20,000 nucleotides of DNA from an uncultured virus (IMG/VR IMGVR_UViG_3300010885_019006) (taxonomy: Duplodnaviria; Heunggongvirae; Uroviricota; Caudoviricetes). The notes under the pieces were generated by a model, which had not been told where the DNA came from, searched no databases, and saw only the letters and a list, made by a program, of their open reading frames with translations. The stretch is taken from positions 54,356 to 74,355 of IMG/VR virus record IMGVR_UViG_3300010885_019006; one strand, written 5' to 3'. The number at the start of each line of letters is the position of its first letter. The first letter of the stretch is position 1. The translations under genes and the position numbers were made by a program. Positions 32-19,809 of this stretch are shown here, one piece after another.

Positions 32-415
32 TCAAAGTCCTTTCACAAAGTCAGACGTAATCATAGCAGCAAGTTCTCTAAACTTAACTATTTCTTCTTC
101 TGTAAGAAGTTCAGTAATTTCAGTGTTAAGAATCCAACCATTAGTTTGTTTCCAACTATCATTTATCCAAACTCTACCACCACGAAGTTTATGTTTAAAC
201 CCGTACATATTATTGGTAATAGACTGGTAAGGATACTGACGGTGAGCACATACCTTACCTGGTGTAAATGATTTGGTGAGAAAATGCTTGAGGATTGTGA
301 CCTTGTCTTCTGACTTAGCCTTCATAGTTTTATAGACACATAGTGCAATAATATCTGCTGCTGTGAGTGTCTTGTTCTTTGCTTTAGTTTTGAATGTAGT
401 AATAAAAGTAGACAT
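32..415 (-). CDS. Hypothetical protein (127 aa), downstream of the amber leader ORF
   Basis: Open ORF with AAGGA RBS about 8 nt upstream of the ATG; no family recognised. Confidence 0.8.
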   Translation of the reverse strand: MSTFITTFKTKAKNKTLTAADIIALCVYKTMKAKSEDKVTILKHFLTKSFTPGKVCAHRQYPYQSITNNMYGFKHKLRGGRVWINDSWKQTNGWILNTEITELLTEEEIVKFRELAAMITSDFVKGL

Positions 416-512
416 AATAGGATTCCTTTTTGTTTAATAAGAGTTTGTTTGATCTTATTAAACCTTCGGGAGGTCCTACTGCGTCATACGGCTACATAGT
501 TTCGGTACTCAT
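384..512 (-). CDS. Leader ORF MSTETM*(UAG)PYDAVGPPEG...; 6 aa if terminated, 42 aa if the amber codon is read through
   Basis: AAGGA RBS, ATG at 512, in-frame TAG at 494-492, next in-frame stop TAA at 386-384, overlapping the start of the 127-aa gene. Confidence 0.6.
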
Positions 513-536
513 ACTATTTCCTTTATTTAAGTAAAG

Positions 537-614
537 TGGTGCTTTGTGGGGGATTTGAACCCCCGACGGCATGATTTTAGAGATCACCGCTCTTGACCAC
601 TGAGCTAACAAAGC
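537..614 (-). tRNA. Amber suppressor tRNA (anticodon CUA)
   Basis: Acceptor GCTTTGT/ACAAAGC-A-CCA; anticodon arm GTGAT-CTCTAAA-ATCAT; T arm GGGGG-TTCAAAT-CCCCC. Confidence 0.88.
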
Positions 615-621
615 ATAAGAT

Positions 622-724
622 AACAGGTAAGTTGCCTACTTTGTATTATTTCCAGACGTACAAAATCGAAAATCGTCCTGGCCGAAGCCTTTTTAAAAGT
701 TTTGCGAGTGGCTGTAACTTACCT
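622..724 (-). ncRNA. Putative structured small RNA (unit 2 of a pair)
   Basis: Closing stem AGGTAAGTT/AACTTACCT; ACAGCCA follows the 5' strand and GTT follows the 3' strand; internal GGC-TTCG-GCC hairpin. Confidence 0.55.
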
Positions 725-731
725 AAATTTC

Positions 732-941
732 AACGGGATGTTATTTGAATTCGGATTTTTACCTCTTCTTCTATTCGGAGAAGCCCTATTCCTACATTCG
801 GGTAGGACACCTACTCCTGGTCCGCCAGGCCGTTGTTAATAGCATGAGTCGCCGAAGCGCTCAGTGACCGGATTTAACATCGAGAGTACCCGAAGGTACA
901 TATGCGCCCGAAGGCTTGAGTCGGTTTGCAGTAACCATCCC
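732..941 (-). ncRNA. Putative structured RNA of about 210 nt (unit 1 of a pair)
   Basis: Closing stem GGGATG(G)TTA/TAACATCCC followed by GTT; three cUUCGg hairpins; GC-rich and non-coding; sits just downstream of an early promoter. Confidence 0.65.
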
Positions 942-945
942 TTAT

Positions 946-979
946 TAGTTTAATATAATCATTTACTTTAAAATGTCAA
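946..979 (-). promoter_or_regulatory. Early (sigma70-like) promoter driving the structured RNAs and suppressor tRNA
   Basis: TTGACA (979-974), 16 nt, then TATATT and AAACTAATAAGGGATGG; a variant of the repeated cassette. Confidence 0.6.
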
Positions 980-1440: not shown

Positions 1441-1553
1441 CTTAGAAGAATGCTGGTTGGGTCGAGTTTGCCGATCTAATGTCGGATATCCATCGGAGAG
1501 GTGCGCTCTCCTCTTCCTGCTTATTTGCCGATCAAGACCAGCACTCATCTAAG
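1441..1553 (-). ncRNA. Long hairpin A after the tmRNA coding piece
   Basis: Stem CTTAGATGAGTGCTGGT/ACCAGCATTCTTCTAAG with inner hairpins GGAGAG/CTCTCC and CCGA/TCGG. Confidence 0.5.
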
Positions 1554-1845
1554 TGGTGGGTTTCTGTTTCAAGGTACCCACCAAACCCATGTTAAATTAG
1601 GCAGCTAGTGCGTAATCAACAATATCGTTATCATTAGATGCGACATTTAGTTTGTTTTGGCCGCTCAGCCACCGAATCAGTCTAAGCAATATCCCTATTC
1701 CACGAAAATCGAGCCTGTTTCATCCCCATCAGTAGTTATGAGTAAGCAACATCTAGCCTCTTTCGGCGCCTCATAACTACTGGTGGAGATGGCGGGTACT
1801 GCCCCCGCGTCTTTCCGTCTTTATTGTCAGCTTTCAAGCAACCAA
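1554..1845 (-). ncRNA. ssrA: Circularly permuted two-piece tmRNA (alphaproteobacterial type)
   Basis: Acceptor piece ends GCGGGGGCAGTACCCGCCATCTCCACCA (1781); hairpin intervening segment; coding piece starts GGGGATG (1727, G3:U70); tag frame 1641-1597 reads ASNDNDIVDYALAA*. The 5' end is approximate. Confidence 0.93.
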
Positions 1846-1980
1846 TATCTTATTTATATTGTCTTTTATGAAGAAGTTCACGAAAATCGAGCCTGTTTCA
1901 TCCCCATCAGTAGTTATGAGTAAGCAACATCTAGCCTCTTTCGGCGCCTCATAACTACTGGTGGAGATGGCGGAAAACAT
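1834..1980 (-). CDS. Possible 48-aa ORF (MFSAISTSSYEAPK...) made largely of the tmRNA duplicate
   Basis: The ATG belongs to an intact early promoter/GGAG RBS cassette; translation is unproven. Confidence 0.3.
   Translation of the reverse strand: MFSAISTSSYEAPKEARCCLLITTDGDETGSIFVNFFIKDNINKILVA
1879..1973 (-). repeat. Exact 95-bp direct duplicate of tmRNA segment 1701-1795
   Basis: Base-by-base identity at an offset of 178. Confidence 0.95.
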
Positions 1981-2034: not shown

Positions 2035-2417
2035 TCGGTTTCTGCATCTTCTGAAATATATTCTTTCTGAATGACTATTTTAGTCACGACAGTCGGCATT
2101 TGTGGACCTGGCATAAGAACTGAAAATGTCTTATTAGTCCAGTAAAGAGGCCAAAACACACCAGAAAAAAGACCGACCATTCCATCAGGATCATTATCAA
2201 AATCTAAACTATAGCAATCTTTACCAGTTGCAACTCGATCTTCTAATGTTGAACATTGAGCATCTTTAAAAGCTTGAAGTCTAGCCTTTTCATTATGATG
2301 TTCTACTGAAGCAAAGCCAAAGGTTAGTAGAGCAACGATACCATAAACACCAACCCAGTAACCAAATGAGCGCTCACTTAGCCATTCTTTAAATGTTTTA
2401 ATATAAGTCAAATACAT
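2031..2417 (-). CDS. Hypothetical membrane protein (128 aa)
   Basis: Hydrophobic N-terminal helix and a GVFWPLYW segment; coupled to the ligase stop (TAATG). Confidence 0.75.
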   Translation of the reverse strand: MYLTYIKTFKEWLSERSFGYWVGVYGIVALLTFGFASVEHHNEKARLQAFKDAQCSTLEDRVATGKDCYSLDFDNDPDGMVGLFSGVFWPLYWTNKTFSVLMPGPQMPTVVTKIVIQKEYISEDAETD

Positions 2418-3622
2418 TAAATTTCTCGCTTCAAACCGTGGAACATAGTAGCTACACCAAACCGAGGGACACCATCAGGAGTTCGTTCAAAGAACTTGAT
2501 AGTCACAATCTTATGAGTCTCAGTAAGAAGTTCTACACCTCGCTCATAAGATCCCTTGATTCCAGCCTTAGCGACACGGACAGAGCCTTCAGAAGGAACT
2601 ACAGTTGAGGAGTACTGTAGCATCTCATCACTACCAGGATTATAGAACAAATCACCAAAGTTGATTGCGGCACCTGGAACCTTGAAGAAAACAGATTTTG
2701 CCGCTCCAGCCCAGTTACCTTGACCTTCCTCAGTCTTGATCATCTCAAACTCTTCGTCAAGAAAATCCTTGCGCTTCAGAAGGTTCTTAGTCCGGCGATT
2801 CTCATACTTTGTATTGTTACGCCACATGGAACCTTCGTAACCAGCCTCAAGCCATTCGCCATGACACTGGTCAAAACTATCAGCAGTGAAAACAGCCTGA
2901 GTAGAAACCAGACGAAGACACTTAGGGCATGGATCTTCCTCATCCAAGAAAAGACTCTCCAGATACGCATCCCGTTCGGCAAAGTTACCGCTATGAGAGG
3001 GCACATCGTAGATATGGTATTGAACCATCGCACGTGTCTTGGTATAGTGCTCAGGCGTCAGCTTCTTGTCAGACTTCACACCAATCAGGCTTGCAATCTC
3101 ATTGAAGTTATCCCGAAGCTCATGGTTGTAAAGTTCACCATCAAAAATCAGATCAGGATCTTCGGCAAAGAGAGGAGCAAGAGCTTCCATAATATGAGGA
3201 CTGGAAACAAATGGCTTTCCAGAACGACTCCATAATCCGTCCTTATTTGCGATACAACGGAAGCCATCTAGCTTAGGTTGAGCAAAACCAGATTGAAAGT
3301 TCTTGGCATCATACTTCTCAGCCAGCATAGCTTCAAAGATATGCGATCCACCAGTCTTAGCAGACTCAATGGAAGTATGATAATCCTTTTCACACTTCTT
3401 CTTATAGAGAGCTTCAATTTCAAATGCGGCTTGAGCAGAACCATCACGTTCATTAGACCGACCAAGATTAGTAGGAAAAGCTATCCGCCATTCAGAACAC
3501 TTAATCTTTCCACCTTGTGTTCCATCCCATGTACGATACTTATCGTCCTGTTGTTCAATATACCAAATCCGTACCTTAGACTTGGAATCAACCTTGTAGC
3601 ACATATCATACATTATAGCCAT
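2417..3622 (-). CDS. ATP-dependent DNA ligase with an N-terminal WGR-like extension
   Basis: Motifs QPKLDGFRC (I), FDGELY (III), YDV (IIIa), EGSMWR (IV) and LLKRK (V), plus an OB-fold tail with PRF. The AGGA RBS favours the ATG at 3622. Confidence 0.93.
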   Translation of the reverse strand: MAIMYDMCYKVDSKSKVRIWYIEQQDDKYRTWDGTQGGKIKCSEWRIAFPTNLGRSNERDGSAQAAFEIEALYKKKCEKDYHTSIESAKTGGSHIFEAMLAEKYDAKNFQSGFAQPKLDGFRCIANKDGLWSRSGKPFVSSPHIMEALAPLFAEDPDLIFDGELYNHELRDNFNEIASLIGVKSDKKLTPEHYTKTRAMVQYHIYDVPSHSGNFAERDAYLESLFLDEEDPCPKCLRLVSTQAVFTADSFDQCHGEWLEAGYEGSMWRNNTKYENRRTKNLLKRKDFLDEEFEMIKTEEGQGNWAGAAKSVFFKVPGAAINFGDLFYNPGSDEMLQYSSTVVPSEGSVRVAKAGIKGSYERGVELLTETHKIVTIKFFERTPDGVPRFGVATMFHGLKREI

Positions 3623-3652
3623 ATTCAAATCCTAATTATATGTTGAACCGAT

Positions 3653-5065: not shown

Positions 5066-6163
5066 TTAAGCCAGCAGATCATTCTTAGTCAGTGTGAAGT
5101 CAGACTTCTTCCATTCGTCTCGCAGGTTCTTCAGAGCGTCACCTAGTTCCCGACCTTGCTTCATACCACGATCCAGTAGATCTTGACCCGTCACAGGGAA
5201 CACAGGGATTTCCCAATTAGCAACTCGAACTGGCATGAACTGATCACGCTCAATCCAAGAAAGATCCAGAACCCACTGACGTGGAACTCCATCAACCAAC
5301 TGTTCCCTCCAATCCCACCGCTTGTAGCAATTTTCTACAATCCAGCGAAGATGCTTAGCTTCATCAGCAGAGAGTTTCCACTTAAAGAGAAAAGAATCCA
5401 GAGTACCAACACTCAGCATAGTACCCAGAGCACCAACGGCAGACTGTTTGATAGTGCAGTGGCGCCGTTTGCCGAGACCCAGAGCTTTCAGAACTCCATG
5501 ATAGTACATGCAATCCAGAACTTCATTTGCATAAAGACTGGTGACAAGCTTTTGCATTTCCAACCAGTAGCGCTCAACCGACACAGTCTTAAGACCGTCC
5601 AGATTTTCCTTGGTGCAGATATCTTTGACCTCATCCAGACACTGATTGATGTTGCCGAACCGAGCCATGAACCGGAAGTACCGCAGAATGCGCAGATAGT
5701 CTTCTTTGACACGAGCATCAGCATCACCAACGAACCGAACTTGATAGTTCAGAAGATCTTCCTGACCGCCGAAGTAGTCATAGATCTTACCATCAAAGTC
5801 CATCGACATAGCATTGATAGTCAAATCACGGCGTGCTGCATCAGCCTCAAAGTCACGCGTATATGCAATGACTGCATGCCGACCATCAGTCTCGGTATCA
5901 ATCCGCAGAGTCGTAACCTCGAACTGCTCACCATTCACAACGATCGTAATCGTGCCGTGTTGCAGACCAGTAGGAATGTAAGAGAAATCCATATCCTCTA
6001 CAATCTCAATCATCTCCTGAGGTGTAGCATTGACACACAGATCAATGTCCTTAGGTTCCATCTTGAGAATGCTATCGCGGACTGCACCACCAACGACTCG
6101 AATTTCGAAGCCATATTGGCGGAACGCAGTCCCCAGGATTTTAAGATTTTCGGAAAAGATCAT
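5066..6163 (-). CDS. cca: Class II tRNA nucleotidyltransferase (CCA-adding enzyme)
   Basis: VGGAVRD, DIDL, EVTTLR, RRDLTINA and EDYLRILR motifs. AAGGAG RBS favours the ATG at 6163. Own promoter TTTACA-17-TAGACT. Confidence 0.92.
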   Translation of the reverse strand: MIFSENLKILGTAFRQYGFEIRVVGGAVRDSILKMEPKDIDLCVNATPQEMIEIVEDMDFSYIPTGLQHGTITIVVNGEQFEVTTLRIDTETDGRHAVIAYTRDFEADAARRDLTINAMSMDFDGKIYDYFGGQEDLLNYQVRFVGDADARVKEDYLRILRYFRFMARFGNINQCLDEVKDICTKENLDGLKTVSVERYWLEMQKLVTSLYANEVLDCMYYHGVLKALGLGKRRHCTIKQSAVGALGTMLSVGTLDSFLFKWKLSADEAKHLRWIVENCYKRWDWREQLVDGVPRQWVLDLSWIERDQFMPVRVANWEIPVFPVTGQDLLDRGMKQGRELGDALKNLRDEWKKSDFTLTKNDLLA

Positions 6164-6219
6164 AAACACTCCTTATGGTTTAGTCTACCATAAAACGTGA
6201 ATTATGTAAACAACTAAGT

Positions 6220-7734: not shown

Positions 7735-7811
7735 TGGTGCCAGGAGAGGGACTTGAACCCTCAGACATTAGGCTCTCGACCTAATCGCTTTGCCAATTTG
7801 CGTATCCGGGC
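7735..7811 (-). tRNA. tRNA-Leu(GAG) with C33 and short variable loop
   Basis: TTAGG-TCGAGAG-CCTAA; CCA. Confidence 0.8.
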
Positions 7812-7818
7812 ATTAACT

Positions 7819-7897
7819 TGGTGCCTGTAGTGAGACTCGAACTCACACTGTAAGCGGTTTTGAACCCCTCGCCTTCTTCCATTTGGGCTACACAGGC
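7819..7897 (-). tRNA. tRNA-Leu(CAA), short variable loop
   Basis: AGGGG-TTCAAAA-CCGCT; CCA. Confidence 0.82.
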
Positions 7898-11251: not shown

Positions 11252-11932
11252 TCACTTGTTGTTTAATTTTCTTCCAGAATACCAATTCTCAGGAATTATA
11301 TCTGTCTTTTTTATTTTTTTATTCTCAGTACCATTTGTAATCCATATTGACCCAAATTGAGAATTTTTTGAACCAGATTGTGAAAGAGAATTTGCAATTC
11401 CCATTTTTTTCTTAGTTTCTTCGGTGTGAATTTTACCACTAAATCCATTAACACCGCCATTATTATAATAATTTTTATTGCTTTCTGAAACCTTTTTTCT
11501 TCTTTCTTCTGCCCATAAACCATTTTGTTTCCATAATATCTTTTGAGTAACTCTTCCCTTATTTAATCCATCAAAAAATATTTTTCTATATTCAAGAACA
11601 AACATGGTTACTTCCAAACCATTTCTTTTTCCATTCTTATTAATATAACCCCAACCGCCTTTTCCTCCGGGACAGATATTGTAAGTGTCCTCACGAAGGC
11701 AGAAGTCCTCGGTTACAAGTTCAGCTTCTTTAGAGTTCATTTCTTCTTCTGAACTAAATATGAAAAGAAGTTCTTTCTTAAAATTTTCTAAACCGTGTTT
11801 CTTTTGAGATCTAGTTAATAATTTACCAGAACCCATGTAATTATCATTAAGATCATATGTTTCGTGTTTACCGATATAAATTTTATTATTAAGTAAGTCT
11901 GTTATCTGATAAATTGTATAATACTTTTGCAT
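11252..11932 (-). mobile_element. Free-standing GIY-YIG homing endonuclease (Seg-like)
   Basis: TIY-x-IYIGKH, YMGSG, NUMOD3-like KIHTEETKKK and WITNG; AT-rich; late promoter. Confidence 0.9.
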
Positions 11933-17624: not shown

Positions 17625-17718
17625 TGGTAGAGAACGCCGGTGCTGCCCCGGCCCGTGAACGCTAATCTGGCGCCTTAAGGGGATATAAGTCCCTCCCGCA
17701 CTGCTGGTGCTGCCCTCC
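17625..17718 (-). tRNA. Atypical tRNA-Ile(UAU) with a long variable arm
   Basis: Acceptor GGAGGGC/GTTCTCT-A-CCA; loop CTTATAT; T arm GCCGG-GGCAGCA-CCGGC. Confidence 0.65.
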
Positions 17719-18139
17719 GTAATAATGACTCTTTAATTTTTCTTTTATGTTCTTCTGTTTTAGGTTTACCTTTATTAGATAAGCCGCCTTTCTTAGAAGA
17801 ATTTTTATGTAACTCTTTGTAAATTTCTGACCCATATTTATTTATGGTTCTTTCATTTATAGAAGTGAGAGTCCCCGCCTCTTTTTGATCTTGTATATTA
17901 TCAAAAGGACTTCCCCAATATAAATGGTCTGAATTTGAGCACTTGGTGTTGTTACAAGCATGACAAACTGCAGCCATATACTTTTTTGTAGGAAAAAGTA
18001 CTTTAAATTTATGTGCCAACAGAACTCTTAATTCTGCATTATGTTTATGGCCAATTTCAATACAAGACTCATTAAGTTTCAGATGTGATCTTCTTTCTTC
18101 TCTAGTCTTAGAAAGATATTCTTCCATTGTGATATACAT
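17675..18139 (-). mobile_element. Free-standing HNH homing endonuclease
   Basis: VCHACNNTKCSNSDHLYWG...N (HNH) and KTEEHKRKI (NUMOD3-like); late promoter at 18171-18164; AGGAG RBS. Confidence 0.85.
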
Positions 18140-19733: not shown

Positions 19734-19809
19734 TGGTACCTGCAGCGAGACTCGAACTCGCACTGGATGCGTTCTAAGCGCATTGCCTCTGCCATTGGGC
19801 TACGCAGGC
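19734..19809 (-). tRNA. tRNA-Leu(UAG), short variable loop
   Basis: ATGCG-CTTAGAA-CGCAT. Confidence 0.88.

What the first reader, a model, noticed from the sequence alone, without database searches (positions are those of the whole stretch)
32..614. Amber-suppressor tRNA plus amber leader ORF: candidate readthrough-gated gene switch
Seen: a tRNA with anticodon CUA ends 24 nt upstream of an SD-led leader, ATG AGT ACC GAA ACT ATG TAG CCG TAT GAC GCA GTA GGA CCT CCC. The V-G-P-P codons (GTAGGA-CC-TCC) can pair with GGA-A-TCCTAT, which covers the SD and the bases just before the ATG of the 127-aa gene; this outer stem encloses a perfect 11-bp inner stem, GTTTAATAAGA/TCTTATTAAAC. Known: GPP/xPP motifs stall ribosomes (EF-P dependent; compare RAPP/RGPP arrest peptides). 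Inference: termination at UAG leaves the SD closed, while readthrough by the phage suppressor tRNA puts a paused ribosome on the anti-SD and turns the gene on. The large genes here are open in code 11 and at least three small ORFs end in TAG, so the tRNA looks regulatory rather than a sign of genome-wide recoding. It could sense RF1 activity or suppressor charging.
Basis: partly seen in the sequence, partly recalled or inferred. Interest (0 to 1): 0.88.

Follow-up and report, generated by a model that had tools for sequence, protein, structure and literature searches.

The report
Suppressor-tRNA-gated leader switch in phage
A phage that uses the normal genetic code carries a stop-codon-reading tRNA followed by a tiny leader gene with a built-in UAG stop, and the next gene is probably translated only when that tRNA reads the stop through; the design recurs in dozens of aquatic phages.

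Summary
No experiment was possible.

**What is in the window (- strand)**
- tRNA(CUA), 614..537.
- An SD-led mini-ORF, MSTETM-UAG-PYDAVGPP, starting 24 nt further on.
- A hairpin (-26.5 kcal/mol, z -4.9) that pairs the Pro-Pro codons with the SD of a 127-aa gene.

**Evidence from relatives**
- I found 54 distinct leaders (57 with three TTG-start ones) in front of two gene families not shown to be related.
- All keep the order start, in-frame stop, 2-6 codons, Pro-Pro, hairpin, SD.
- Codons after the stop vary synonymously, so they are translated. The stems covary.
- The gate codon is TAG in 53 of 54. The one TGA leader sits behind a tRNA(UCA).
- The predicted anti-SD lies inside the footprint of a ribosome at Pro-Pro(-stop) in 54 of 54 leaders. 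It lies beyond a ribosome at the gate stop in 53 of 54.
- The phage, a T4-like myovirus, uses the standard code.

**Open points**
- Stalling, readthrough, the inserted amino acid and the function of the regulated proteins are untested.
- Two cultured phages (DSS3_MAL1, BUCT-ZZ01) carry the module.
- Eight literature searches found only synthetic analogues.

The parts
952..979 (-). Promoter-like site TTGACA-16-TATATT (11 of 12), probable start of the transcription unit. Tentative.
   Evidence: Consensus scan. 6 sites were found in 2.1 kb against 4.9 expected, so the site alone is weak.
724..946 (-). Conserved structured RNA of unknown kind between the promoter-like site and the tRNA. It is context, and not shown to belong to the switch.
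   Evidence: blastn to L013, L017, L018 and L019. RNAalifold gives 29 pairs, 11 with compensatory change. No Rfam hit at E<=5. Lake metatranscriptome contigs cover 704-895 and 759-864 only.
537..614 (-). Suppressor tRNA, anticodon CUA (loop CU-CUA-AA), CCA encoded. The amino acid it carries is unknown.
   Evidence: Ten relatives aligned (plus one wrong row, L015, ignored) keep the anticodon loop, while their acceptor stems change with compensation.
519..522 (-). Shine-Dalgarno AGGA of the leader ORF, 6 nt before its ATG.
   Evidence: Read. A comparable SD stands before every relative's leader.
495..512 (-). Leader ORF before the gate: ATG AGT ACC GAA ACT ATG (MSTETM).
   Evidence: In the relatives read this part has 0-15 codons after the start and is in frame with the gate in all 54 parsed leaders.
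492..494 (-). Gate codon TAG, followed by C.
   Evidence: The gate is TAG in 53 and TGA in 1 of 54 distinct leaders.
468..491 (-). Post-gate codons CCG TAT GAC GCA GTA GGA CCT CCC (PYDAVGPP). This is the proposed pause site and contains the anti-SD.
   Evidence: Synonymous third-position changes occur in 7 of 8 codons among 13 relatives.
469..480 (-). 5' arm of the outer stem: AGUAGGA (480..474) and anti-SD UCC (471..469).
   Evidence: Fold. Covariation.
432..463 (-). Inner hairpin, an 11-bp perfect stem with a 10-nt loop.
   Evidence: At least 6 unrelated inner-stem sequences in relatives are all self-complementary.
416..428 (-). SD of the 127-aa gene (AAGGAA 428..423, with GGA 426..424 paired) and the 3' arm UCCUAUU (422..416).
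   Evidence: P(SD paired) is 0.97.
32..415 (-). Regulated gene, 127 aa, function unknown.
   Evidence: ORF. 34 homologues. AF2 pLDDT 94.1. No Pfam, PHROG, NCBIfam, PDB or BFVD match.

Best explanation
This is a translational ON switch gated by the phage's own suppressor tRNA.

**OFF state.** The tRNA(CUA) and the leader lie in one transcript. In the free mRNA a hairpin pairs the Shine-Dalgarno sequence, and in part the AUG, of the downstream gene with the Pro-Pro codons of the leader or the bases just after them. Ribosomes start on the leader's own SD and reach the in-frame UAG after a few codons. If RF1 wins, they leave 13 nt or more short of the anti-SD and the gene stays closed.

**ON state.** If the charged suppressor tRNA decodes UAG, the ribosome translates 4-8 more codons. 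It then dwells at x-Pro-Pro: in this window G-P-P followed by a sense codon, in most relatives R/K-P-P followed directly by a stop. This is a context of slow peptide-bond formation or slow termination. The dwelling ribosome holds the anti-SD inside its mRNA channel, the SD is freed, and a second ribosome initiates on the 127-aa gene.

**What is shown by sequence comparison:** the conserved parts, translation across the gate (coding signature), SD sequestration, the geometry, and the pairing of gate codon with anticodon.

**What is inferred:** that readthrough occurs, that the ribosome pauses at Pro-Pro, that the effect is activation, and what the output protein does.
For: 1. **Architecture.** 54 distinct leaders parsed (10 before the 127-aa family, 44 before a 120-aa family), plus 3 with a TTG start directly before TAG. 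All run SD, start, 0-15 codons, in-frame stop, 2-6 codons, Pro-Pro, with the Pro-Pro end 47-65 nt before the gene's ATG.
2. **The gate is specific.** The gate is TAG in 53, TGA in 1 and TAA in 0 of 54, although TAG is the rarest stop in this genome. A pattern search without the TAG found 30 places (21 distinct). All 8 distinct true leaders among them carry TAG. The other 13 are unrelated G+C-rich DNA.
3. **The gate matches the tRNA.** ARAGORN calls tRNA(CUA) upstream on the same strand in 41 of 52 loci scanned. A further 3 have odd loops that contain CUA. The single TGA leader (L133) follows a tRNA(UCA). That tRNA is 69-75% identical to the CUA tRNAs of other loci and 55-65% to its own neighbouring tRNAs.
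4. **Translation passes the gate.** In the window's subfamily 7 of 8 post-gate codons vary at the third position, all synonymously (GGA/T/G/C, CCT/A, CCC/G/T, TAT/C, GAC/T, GCA/G, TCG/A, CCG/C). There is no start codon after the gate. All four CCN codons are used at both Pro positions across the family.
5. **Structure.** 12 of 12 leaders of the window's subfamily fold with z -3.1 to -6.0 and P(SD paired) 0.64-0.99. 53 of 54 leaders have P(SD paired) of at least 0.59. On the model-fitted alignment, 15 of 20 pairs changed on both sides and 87.7% of cells are paired, against 34-49% when slid; 0 of 500 shuffles reach this. On the MAFFT alignment, 8 of 16 pairs are compensatory.
6. **Ruler.** The MFE partner of the SD lies -11 to +12 nt from the codon after Pro-Pro in 54 of 54 leaders, and more than 12 nt past the gate stop in 53 of 54. 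Masking a ribosome at UAG leaves P(SD paired) at 0.64-0.99. Masking one at Pro-Pro lowers it to 0.08-0.57 in 12 of 12.
7. **Natural ungated forms.** In L129 and L159-L162 an 81-83-aa upstream ORF ends in (V/A)PP-stop 54-63 nt before the ATG, with no gate and no tRNA. So Pro-Pro-stop plus hairpin works as a coupling device by itself, and the gate is an added condition.
8. **No genome-wide recoding**.
Against: - Nothing here shows that the tRNA is charged, that UAG is read through, or that a ribosome pauses. All structure and footprint arguments rest on thermodynamic prediction, and on a footprint of about 12 nt past the A-site codon that I recalled and did not measure.
- In the larger 120-aa family the hairpins are weaker. 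Only 32 of 54 have z below -2, and some are near 0.
- In 28 of 54 MFE folds the SD partner lies just after the Pro-Pro codons, not inside them. A helicase reach shorter than the footprint would open these only in part.
- 7 of 52 loci have no suppressor tRNA called upstream. In L125 the adjacent tRNA is Val(UAC) although the gate is TAG.
- L101 has a TAG gate but no Pro-Pro.
- The TGA/UCA match rests on one contig.
- The window's GPP is followed by a sense codon, and its readthrough frame runs on to TAA at 386..384 inside the gene. The pause there would have to be of the elongation kind.
- The regulated proteins have no known function, so no biological logic can be checked.
Confidence: 0.7

Rival explanations
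1. Release-factor sensor with the pause at the gate itself. The ribosome waits at UAG-C/A/G because termination there is slow or RF1 is depleted during infection. This waiting ribosome, not one that has read through, opens the structure. The tRNA would relieve the pause or be irrelevant.
For: The base after the gate is never T (A 27, G 14, C 13 of 54), so the context may be tuned. The gate lies only 2-3 codons before Pro-Pro in 31 of 54 leaders. In one leader (L147) the anti-SD starts 7 nt after the gate.
Against: The codons after the gate carry a clear coding signature, and Pro-Pro is kept in 54 of 54 parsed leaders. This has no reason under this model. The anti-SD lies more than 12 nt past the gate in 53 of 54. 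The gate codon follows the anticodon in L133.
Confidence: 0.1
2. Plain translational coupling or a functional micropeptide. Readthrough occurs, but no programmed pause is needed. Any ribosome passing the 5' arm opens the hairpin briefly, or the 15-40-residue product itself is the point.
For: The ungated variants (L129, L159-L162) couple the gene to an ordinary upstream ORF. In L004 and L005 the readthrough frame ends at a TGA that overlaps the gene's ATG (read).
Against: Pro-Pro is kept in every parsed leader whatever the rest of the peptide. It is followed at once by a stop in 38 of 54, and the distance to the ATG is held at 47-65 nt. The peptide before the gate and after Pro-Pro is not conserved, which argues against a functional peptide.
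Confidence: 0.12
3. Translational bypass of the T4 gene 60 kind. Peptidyl-tRNA takes off at the codon before UAG and lands downstream, skipping the hairpin.
For: The phage is T4-like. Several leaders have a Gly codon (GGA, GGC, GGG, GGT) right before TAG, and a hairpin follows.
Against: The codon before the gate varies widely (ATG, GGC, GGA, TTC, AAC, CGG, AAA and others), and I saw no matching landing codon in the leaders I read. The stretch that would be skipped is conserved as coding sequence.
Confidence: 0.02
4. Chance or an assembly artefact: a tRNA, a short ORF and a hairpin that merely lie side by side.
For: None beyond the small size of each element.
Against: The design recurs in 54 distinct sequences from many samples and in two cultured phages. 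The background rate of the pattern is 3 of 381 other ORF upstream regions.
Confidence: 0.01

Closest known systems
Regulatory arrest peptides that unmask a downstream SD (SecM-secA; RAPP-type ApdA/ApdP/ApcA; ErmCL)
   Same: A short upstream ORF. A proline-based pause site: SecM and RAPP motifs end in Pro (PMC10951233 and PMC7897499, abstracts only; PMC12856214, passages). An mRNA stem holds the next gene's SD, and a paused ribosome opens it.
   Different: The input is not secretion or a drug but decoding of an in-frame stop codon by a co-transcribed suppressor tRNA. The peptides are much shorter: 4-8 residues after the gate. The motif is x-P-P, mostly followed by a stop. In this window it is VGPP, not RAPP. 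The downstream genes are not Sec/YidC components.
Phage suppressor tRNAs of stop-codon-recoded phages (TAG to Gln 'code 15', TGA to Trp; Borges et al., bioRxiv 10.1101/2021.08.26.457843, passages read)
   Same: A phage-encoded tRNA(CUA) or tRNA(UCA) that competes with the host release factor. There is also the idea that suppression times gene expression.
   Different: That work describes many in-frame stops inside late and lysis genes. Here the genome is in standard code and the only conserved in-frame stop I found is in a regulatory leader.
RF2 (prfB) autoregulation (recalled, no call)
   Same: An in-frame stop codon early in a reading frame serves as a sensor of decoding capacity at that stop.
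   Different: prfB uses a +1 frameshift at UGA and senses RF2. Here the frame is kept, a tRNA reads the stop, and the output is SD unmasking of a separate gene.
Synthetic amber-gated leader switches (review PMC6412442, section 6 and Figure 8 legend; PMC7969014, abstract only)
   Same: A TAG placed in a leader peptide makes downstream expression depend on an amber suppressor tRNA.
   Different: These are engineered, and act through transcription attenuation (trp/tna leaders) or direct gating of the target ORF. The present case is natural and acts on an SD hairpin.

Membership tests
Leader-peptide / arrest-peptide SD-unmasking switches | Short translated ORF immediately upstream of the regulated gene | tested here: met
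   An SD-led ORF is present in 54 distinct leaders. A coding signature is seen after the gate.
Leader-peptide / arrest-peptide SD-unmasking switches | SD of the regulated gene sequestered by a structure that overlaps the leader's pause site | tested here: met
   Predicted only. P(SD paired) is at least 0.59 in 53 of 54. The anti-SD lies within -11..+12 nt of the codon after Pro-Pro in 54 of 54. Covariation.
Leader-peptide / arrest-peptide SD-unmasking switches | Ribosome arrest at a defined codon | not testable with these tools
   Pro-Pro is present in all parsed leaders, and a stop follows in 38 of 54. Pausing itself needs toeprinting or ribosome profiling.
RAPP-type arrest peptides (ApdA/ApdP/ApcA) | R-A-P-P/G motif at the arrest site | tested here: not met
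   The window has A-V-G-P-P. Among the 54 leaders the residue before Pro-Pro is R in 18, G in 14 and K in 7. No R-A-P-P was seen.
RAPP-type arrest peptides (ApdA/ApdP/ApcA) | Located upstream of Sec/YidC pathway genes | tested here: not met
   The downstream genes are 127-aa and 120-aa proteins without Pfam, PHROG or NCBIfam matches.
Stop-codon-recoded phage (code 15 type) | Phage-encoded suppressor tRNA | tested here: met
   tRNA(CUA) at 614..537.
Stop-codon-recoded phage (code 15 type) | Many genes with in-frame recoded stops; longer ORFs and higher density when the stop is read as sense | tested here: not met
   Coding density is 91-92% by code 11. Reading TAG as sense adds nothing. Extensions after TAG stops are 2-18 codons in the 74-kb contig. 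T4-like structural genes are open.
T4 gene 60-type bypass | Matched take-off and landing codons around an untranslated gap | tested here: not met
   The pre-gate codon varies widely, and the supposed gap is conserved as coding sequence.
Pyrrolysine / selenocysteine insertion (ARAGORN labels 'Pyl', 'SeC') | Dedicated machinery (PylS/PylBCD; SelA/SelB and SECIS) and the special tRNA shapes | not tested
   The labels follow from the anticodon alone. I did not search for the machinery. The tRNA scores 63 bits against the general tRNA model.

The most novel reading that the evidence does not exclude
In these phages the suppressor tRNA is not a decoding aid. It is a dedicated trans-acting regulator: a tRNA that switches on one gene through a one-codon 'lock' in a leader, with lock and key able to change together (TAG/CUA to TGA/UCA). 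This would explain why standard-code phages keep suppressor tRNAs. It would also provide a ready-made, self-checking starting point from which genome-wide stop-codon recoding could evolve. The unknown 120-127-aa proteins set inside tRNA arrays would then be factors that act on termination, on the suppressor tRNA or on stalled ribosomes, possibly together with the neighbouring phage tmRNA.
Probability: 0.45. Interest if true: 0.93.

Novelty: new variant of a known kind. Interest (0 to 1): 0.88.

Why it matters
- Suppressor tRNAs in phages that use the standard code have had no clear role. Here one is tied to a specific, conserved regulatory target.
- If confirmed, this would be a natural switch in which stop-codon readthrough by a co-encoded tRNA is the signal. 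So far that principle is known only from engineered circuits.
- It links three fields: arrest-peptide control, release-factor competition, and the evolution of alternative genetic codes.
- It is directly testable. The parts are under 200 nt. A natural TAG/CUA to TGA/UCA swap suggests the decisive experiment. Two cultured phages carry the module: DSS3_MAL1, and Synechococcus phage BUCT-ZZ01 on S. elongatus PCC 7942.
- It points to two abundant protein families of unknown function as likely players in translation during infection.

Tried and rejected
**Genome-wide recoding.** Rejected.

**Function of the 127-aa protein.** No match in:
- Pfam, PHROGs or NCBIfam.
- Foldseek against PDB and BFVD, no match at E<=0.001.
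- VIA-align wide, best Z 4.9.
- ESM Atlas, best score 0.87, below the level to trust.

**Function of the 120-aa protein.** Pfam gave only YfmQ at E 0.03, below cut-off. No PHROG or NCBIfam match. Foldseek PDB best E 1.7, ESCRT-III-like helical hairpins.

**Homology between the two regulated families.** hhalign probability is 1.8-5%, so it is not shown. My guess that the 129-aa gene downstream is a PTH2-type hydrolase found no Pfam support.

**Other searches that found nothing useful**
- RF-1 domain in the 144 kb held: none. The 187-kb record behind L007 could not be searched.
- Relatives among cultured phages by DNA or by the 127-aa protein: none.
- Cr30 and phiM12, the nearest cultured relatives by a baseplate protein, lack the leader pattern.
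- The genome contigs pattern scan gave two chance matches in bacterial coding DNA.
- The covariance model gave one more weak hit in this genome, L032:10267-10354. It is a hairpin inside a 50-aa ORF with no gate.
- A second TGA/UCA example: none found.

**Expression.** RNA-library contigs covered only 704-895 and 759-864. The leader had no cover, which says nothing.

**tRNA identity.** It could not be settled. The nearest own tRNAs are 'Leu' at 65-69%, and the discriminator base varies between A and G.

Full report
**1. Observation**

All genes of the window lie on the - strand.
- ARAGORN finds 21 tRNAs. One has anticodon CUA, at 614..537, and scores 63.1 bits on Rfam's tRNA model.
- After its encoded CCA come 24 nt containing AGGA.
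- Then comes ATG AGT ACC GAA ACT ATG TAG CCG TAT GAC GCA GTA GGA CCT CCC (ATG at 512..510, TAG at 494..492).
- The stretch 405-495(-) folds at -26.5 kcal/mol, z -4.9, with 0 of 200 shuffles as stable. AGUAGGA pairs with UCCUAUU. UCC of the Pro-Pro codons pairs with GGA of the SD of the 127-aa gene (415..32).

**2. The genome**

- The window is the end of a 74,355-bp virus contig. A sister record of 141,838 bp (CheckV 77%) extends it.
- PHROG matches make it a T4-like myovirus: gp32-like SSB, helicase loader, DNA end protector, baseplate wedge and hub, tail sheath stabilizer, and neck proteins.
- The nearest cultured relative by a baseplate wedge protein is Caulobacter phage Cr30, at 41.5%.
- An alphaproteobacterial-type permuted tmRNA lies at 1552-1876.
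- Code 11 gives a coding density of 91-92%, and reading TAG as sense adds nothing.
- TAG ends 6 of 82 picked genes in the 74-kb contig (7 plus-strand picks of the 89 were dropped). It ends 9 of 111 in the further 70 kb.
- Extensions behind TAG stops in the 74-kb contig are 2-18 codons.

The tRNA is therefore not a sign of genome-wide recoding.

**3. Relatives of the 127-aa gene**

The protein has 34 homologues. Loci came from viral contigs and metagenomes.
- Every locus with enough upstream sequence has the leader, except L017. There a deletion joins the 5' half of the tRNA to the gene's SD.
- With a pattern search this gives 12 distinct leader-hairpin sequences.
- The part before the gate has 6, 8, 9, 10, 12, 14 or 15 codons and is always in frame.
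- The gate is always TAG.
- The next eight codons read [P/L]Y[D/H/Y][A/S][V/I]GPP. Third-position changes occur in 7 of 8 codons, and all are synonymous.
- After Pro-Pro comes TAA in four leaders (L002, L008, L018, L019) and sense codons in the others.
- No start codon lies behind the gate, so this stretch can only be translated by reading through.
- A search for the post-gate motif without the TAG found 30 places. The 8 distinct true leaders among them all carry TAG. The other 13 distinct hits are unrelated G+C-rich DNA.

**4. Structure**

- All 12 fold with z -3.1 to -6.0 and P(SD paired) 0.64-0.99.
- At least six unrelated inner-stem sequences are each self-complementary.
- RNAalifold on a MAFFT alignment finds 8 of 16 pairs with compensatory change.
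- On an alignment fitted to a covariance model (18 rows, two of them doubtful weak hits):
  - 15 of 20 pairs changed on both sides.
  - 87.7% of cells pair, against 34-49% with slid partners.
  - 0 of 500 shuffles reach this.
  - That alignment leans towards the structure by construction.
- The Gly third base covaries with the base after GGAA (GGA/UCC, GGU/ACC).

**5. A much larger family**

Three pattern-search loci (L020, L029, L030) have the same tRNA and leader, but a different downstream gene of 120-123 aa.
- That family has 538 members at E<=0.001.
- It is not shown to be related to the 127-aa family (hhalign 1.8-5%).
- Eighty viral loci gave 58 distinct upstream regions.
- A parser found 54 distinct leaders in both families together. 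Three more (L109, L132, L135) have TTG directly followed by TAG.

Counts:

| Feature | Count among 54 leaders |
|---|---|
| Gate codon | TAG 53, TGA 1, TAA 0 |
| Base after the gate | A 27, G 14, C 13, T 0 |
| Codons between gate and Pro-Pro | 2-6 |
| Residue before Pro-Pro | R 18, G 14, K 7, S 6 |
| Codon right after Pro-Pro is a stop | 38 |
| Pro-Pro end to the gene's ATG | 47-65 nt |

- Typical post-gate peptides are IRPP, ITRPP, ITKPP, VFRPP, VSRSPP and xAKSRDPP.
- The same parser hits 4 of 382 ORF upstream regions in this phage's 143,980 bp, one of them the true leader.
- Exceptions:
  - L101 has TAG but no Pro-Pro.
  - L138 has no leader.
  - L125 has TAG but an adjacent Val(UAC) tRNA.

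**6. tRNA link**

- Of 52 loci scanned, ARAGORN calls tRNA(CUA) upstream in 41. Odd loops containing CUA occur in 3, and no suppressor is called in 7. Of those 7, L101 and L104 show CUA-type loops by eye.
- In most loci the tRNA ends about 105-123 nt before the gene's ATG, so the leader follows it directly.
- L133 is the one leader with a TGA gate (ATG TTG TGA GTA TAC GCG CCA CCT TAA). Its adjacent tRNA has anticodon UCA.
- That tRNA is 69-75% identical to the CUA tRNAs of other loci and 55-65% to its own neighbours. It belongs to the same tRNA lineage, and lock and key changed together.
- I found only this one contig of the kind.

**7. Geometry**

- In the MFE folds the partner of the SD lies -11 to +12 nt from the codon after Pro-Pro in 54 of 54 leaders. 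It lies more than 12 nt past the first base of the gate in 53 of 54.
- With a ribosome-sized mask on UAG, P(SD paired) stays at 0.64-0.99. With the mask on Pro-Pro it drops to 0.08-0.57 in 12 of 12.
- The footprint size is recalled knowledge. The helicase reach is shorter, so leaders whose anti-SD lies at +7..+11 would be opened only in part.
- In the larger family many hairpins are modest: 32 of 54 have z below -2.

**8. Ungated natural variants**

- In L129 and L159-L162 an 81-83-aa ORF ends in (V/A)PP-stop 54-63 nt before the ATG of the 120-aa gene.
- These loci have the anti-SD at the Pro-Pro codons, no gate stop and no tRNA.
- So Pro-Pro-stop plus hairpin is a coupling device in its own right. 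The gate makes it conditional.

**9. Mechanism proposed**

- Termination at the gate leaves the SD closed.
- Readthrough by the suppressor carries the ribosome to Pro-Pro, where it dwells.
  - In this window the cause would be slow peptide-bond formation.
  - In most relatives the cause would be slow termination after C-terminal Pro-Pro. That effect was described by Hayes et al. 2002, which I know only from a reference list and from recall.
- The dwelling ribosome covers the anti-SD, so the gene is switched on.
- The neighbouring phage tmRNA may recycle such ribosomes. It lies near the tRNA in the window, L002, L004, L005, L019, L020 and BUCT-ZZ01. This link is speculation.

**10. Known systems and literature**

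- It works like SecM/ErmCL/RAPP-type arrest leaders, but it fails the RAPP motif and the Sec/YidC context.
- It shares the tRNA with recoded phages, but not the recoding.
- Eight searches found no natural precedent. One search was uninformative because 'MAL1' is a common word.
- What I read of the papers:
  - The Borges preprint (passages) treats genome-wide recoding only.
  - A review (PMC6412442, section 6 and a figure legend) describes engineered TAG-gated leaders.
  - The Melnitz paper (passages) describes phage two-piece tmRNA without mention of suppressors.
- Supplements were not consulted.
- Two earlier notes of this scan on other genomes describe the same design (e1-5911500) and a TAG-to-TTA gate change with a UAA tRNA (e1-5778575). 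They are leads, not support.

**11. Testability**

- Bacteriophage DSS3_MAL1 carries MKS-TAG-IRPPP-TGA behind its tRNA(CUA).
- Synechococcus phage BUCT-ZZ01 (host S. elongatus PCC 7942) carries MGGDAS-TAG-INLKPP-TAA.
- In both, the hairpin sequesters the SD: z -3.4 and -3.15.
- Their records annotate only 'tRNA-Pyl' (DSS3_MAL1) and hypothetical proteins.

**12. Verdict**

This is a real, conserved and apparently undescribed regulatory cassette. The parts and their co-variation are shown. Readthrough, pausing, the direction of control and the role of the regulated proteins are inferred.

Noticed in passing
window 724-946 (-), with 615-723 as a long hairpin before the tRNA: A conserved structured RNA of about 220 nt starts just after the promoter-like site. 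It has a closing helix GGGAUG/CAUCCC, several UUCG-type hairpins and an invariant block around UAGGGCUUCUCCGAAUAGAAGAAGAG. Homologues occur in L013, L017, L018 and L019, and 11 of 29 predicted pairs are compensatory. There is no Rfam hit. Two lake metatranscriptome contigs (192 nt at 704-895, 151 nt with 759-864 aligned) cover just this RNA.
   Followed up: partly
window 1552-1876 (-): A phage-encoded permuted (two-piece) tmRNA of the alphaproteobacterial type, 89.8 bits. A tmRNA lies near the suppressor tRNA in several related loci and in Synechococcus phage BUCT-ZZ01.
   Followed up: partly
window 7735-7811, 7819-7897, 19734-19809 (-): The three tRNAs with Leu anticodons (GAG, CAA, UAG) are only 76-79 nt long, so they lack the long variable arm expected of bacterial tRNA-Leu. 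The CUA tRNA is most similar to two of them (65-69%).
   Followed up: no
L017:2440-2510: A deletion variant: the 5' half of the suppressor tRNA is joined directly to the SD of the 127-aa gene, with no leader. It may be a natural loss or an assembly error.
   Followed up: no
L133:1018-1206: An opal version of the cassette: tRNA(UCA) followed by a leader with a TGA gate (ML-TGA-VYAPP-TAA). Only one such contig was found.
   Followed up: yes
L099:1120-1150; L109, L132, L135 likewise: Minimal leaders in which the start codon (ATG or TTG) is followed at once by TAG. Without suppression the ORF is a bare start-stop pair.
   Followed up: partly
L129:904-1149; L159-L162:89-340: Ungated variants: a conserved 81-83-aa ORF ends in (V/A)PP-stop at the anti-SD of the 120-aa gene, with no tRNA or gate codon.
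   Followed up: yes
L076, L079, L111, L121, L124, L127, L131, L141: The 120-aa gene is often the only protein-coding gene inside a dense tRNA array, directly after the suppressor tRNA. This hints at a tRNA- or translation-related role.
   Followed up: no
window 2417-3628, 5066-6169, 11252-11932, 17675-18139 (-): The tRNA region also encodes an ATP-dependent ligase-like protein, a PolyA_pol head-domain protein (probably a CCA-adding enzyme), a GIY-YIG/NUMOD3 homing-endonuclease-like protein and an HNH endonuclease-like protein.
   Followed up: no
L099:222-297, L109:942-1017, L147:122-196: Suppressor-type tRNAs with unusual anticodon loops (CCCUAAC, so C rather than U before the anticodon), which ARAGORN reports as '???'.
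   Followed up: no
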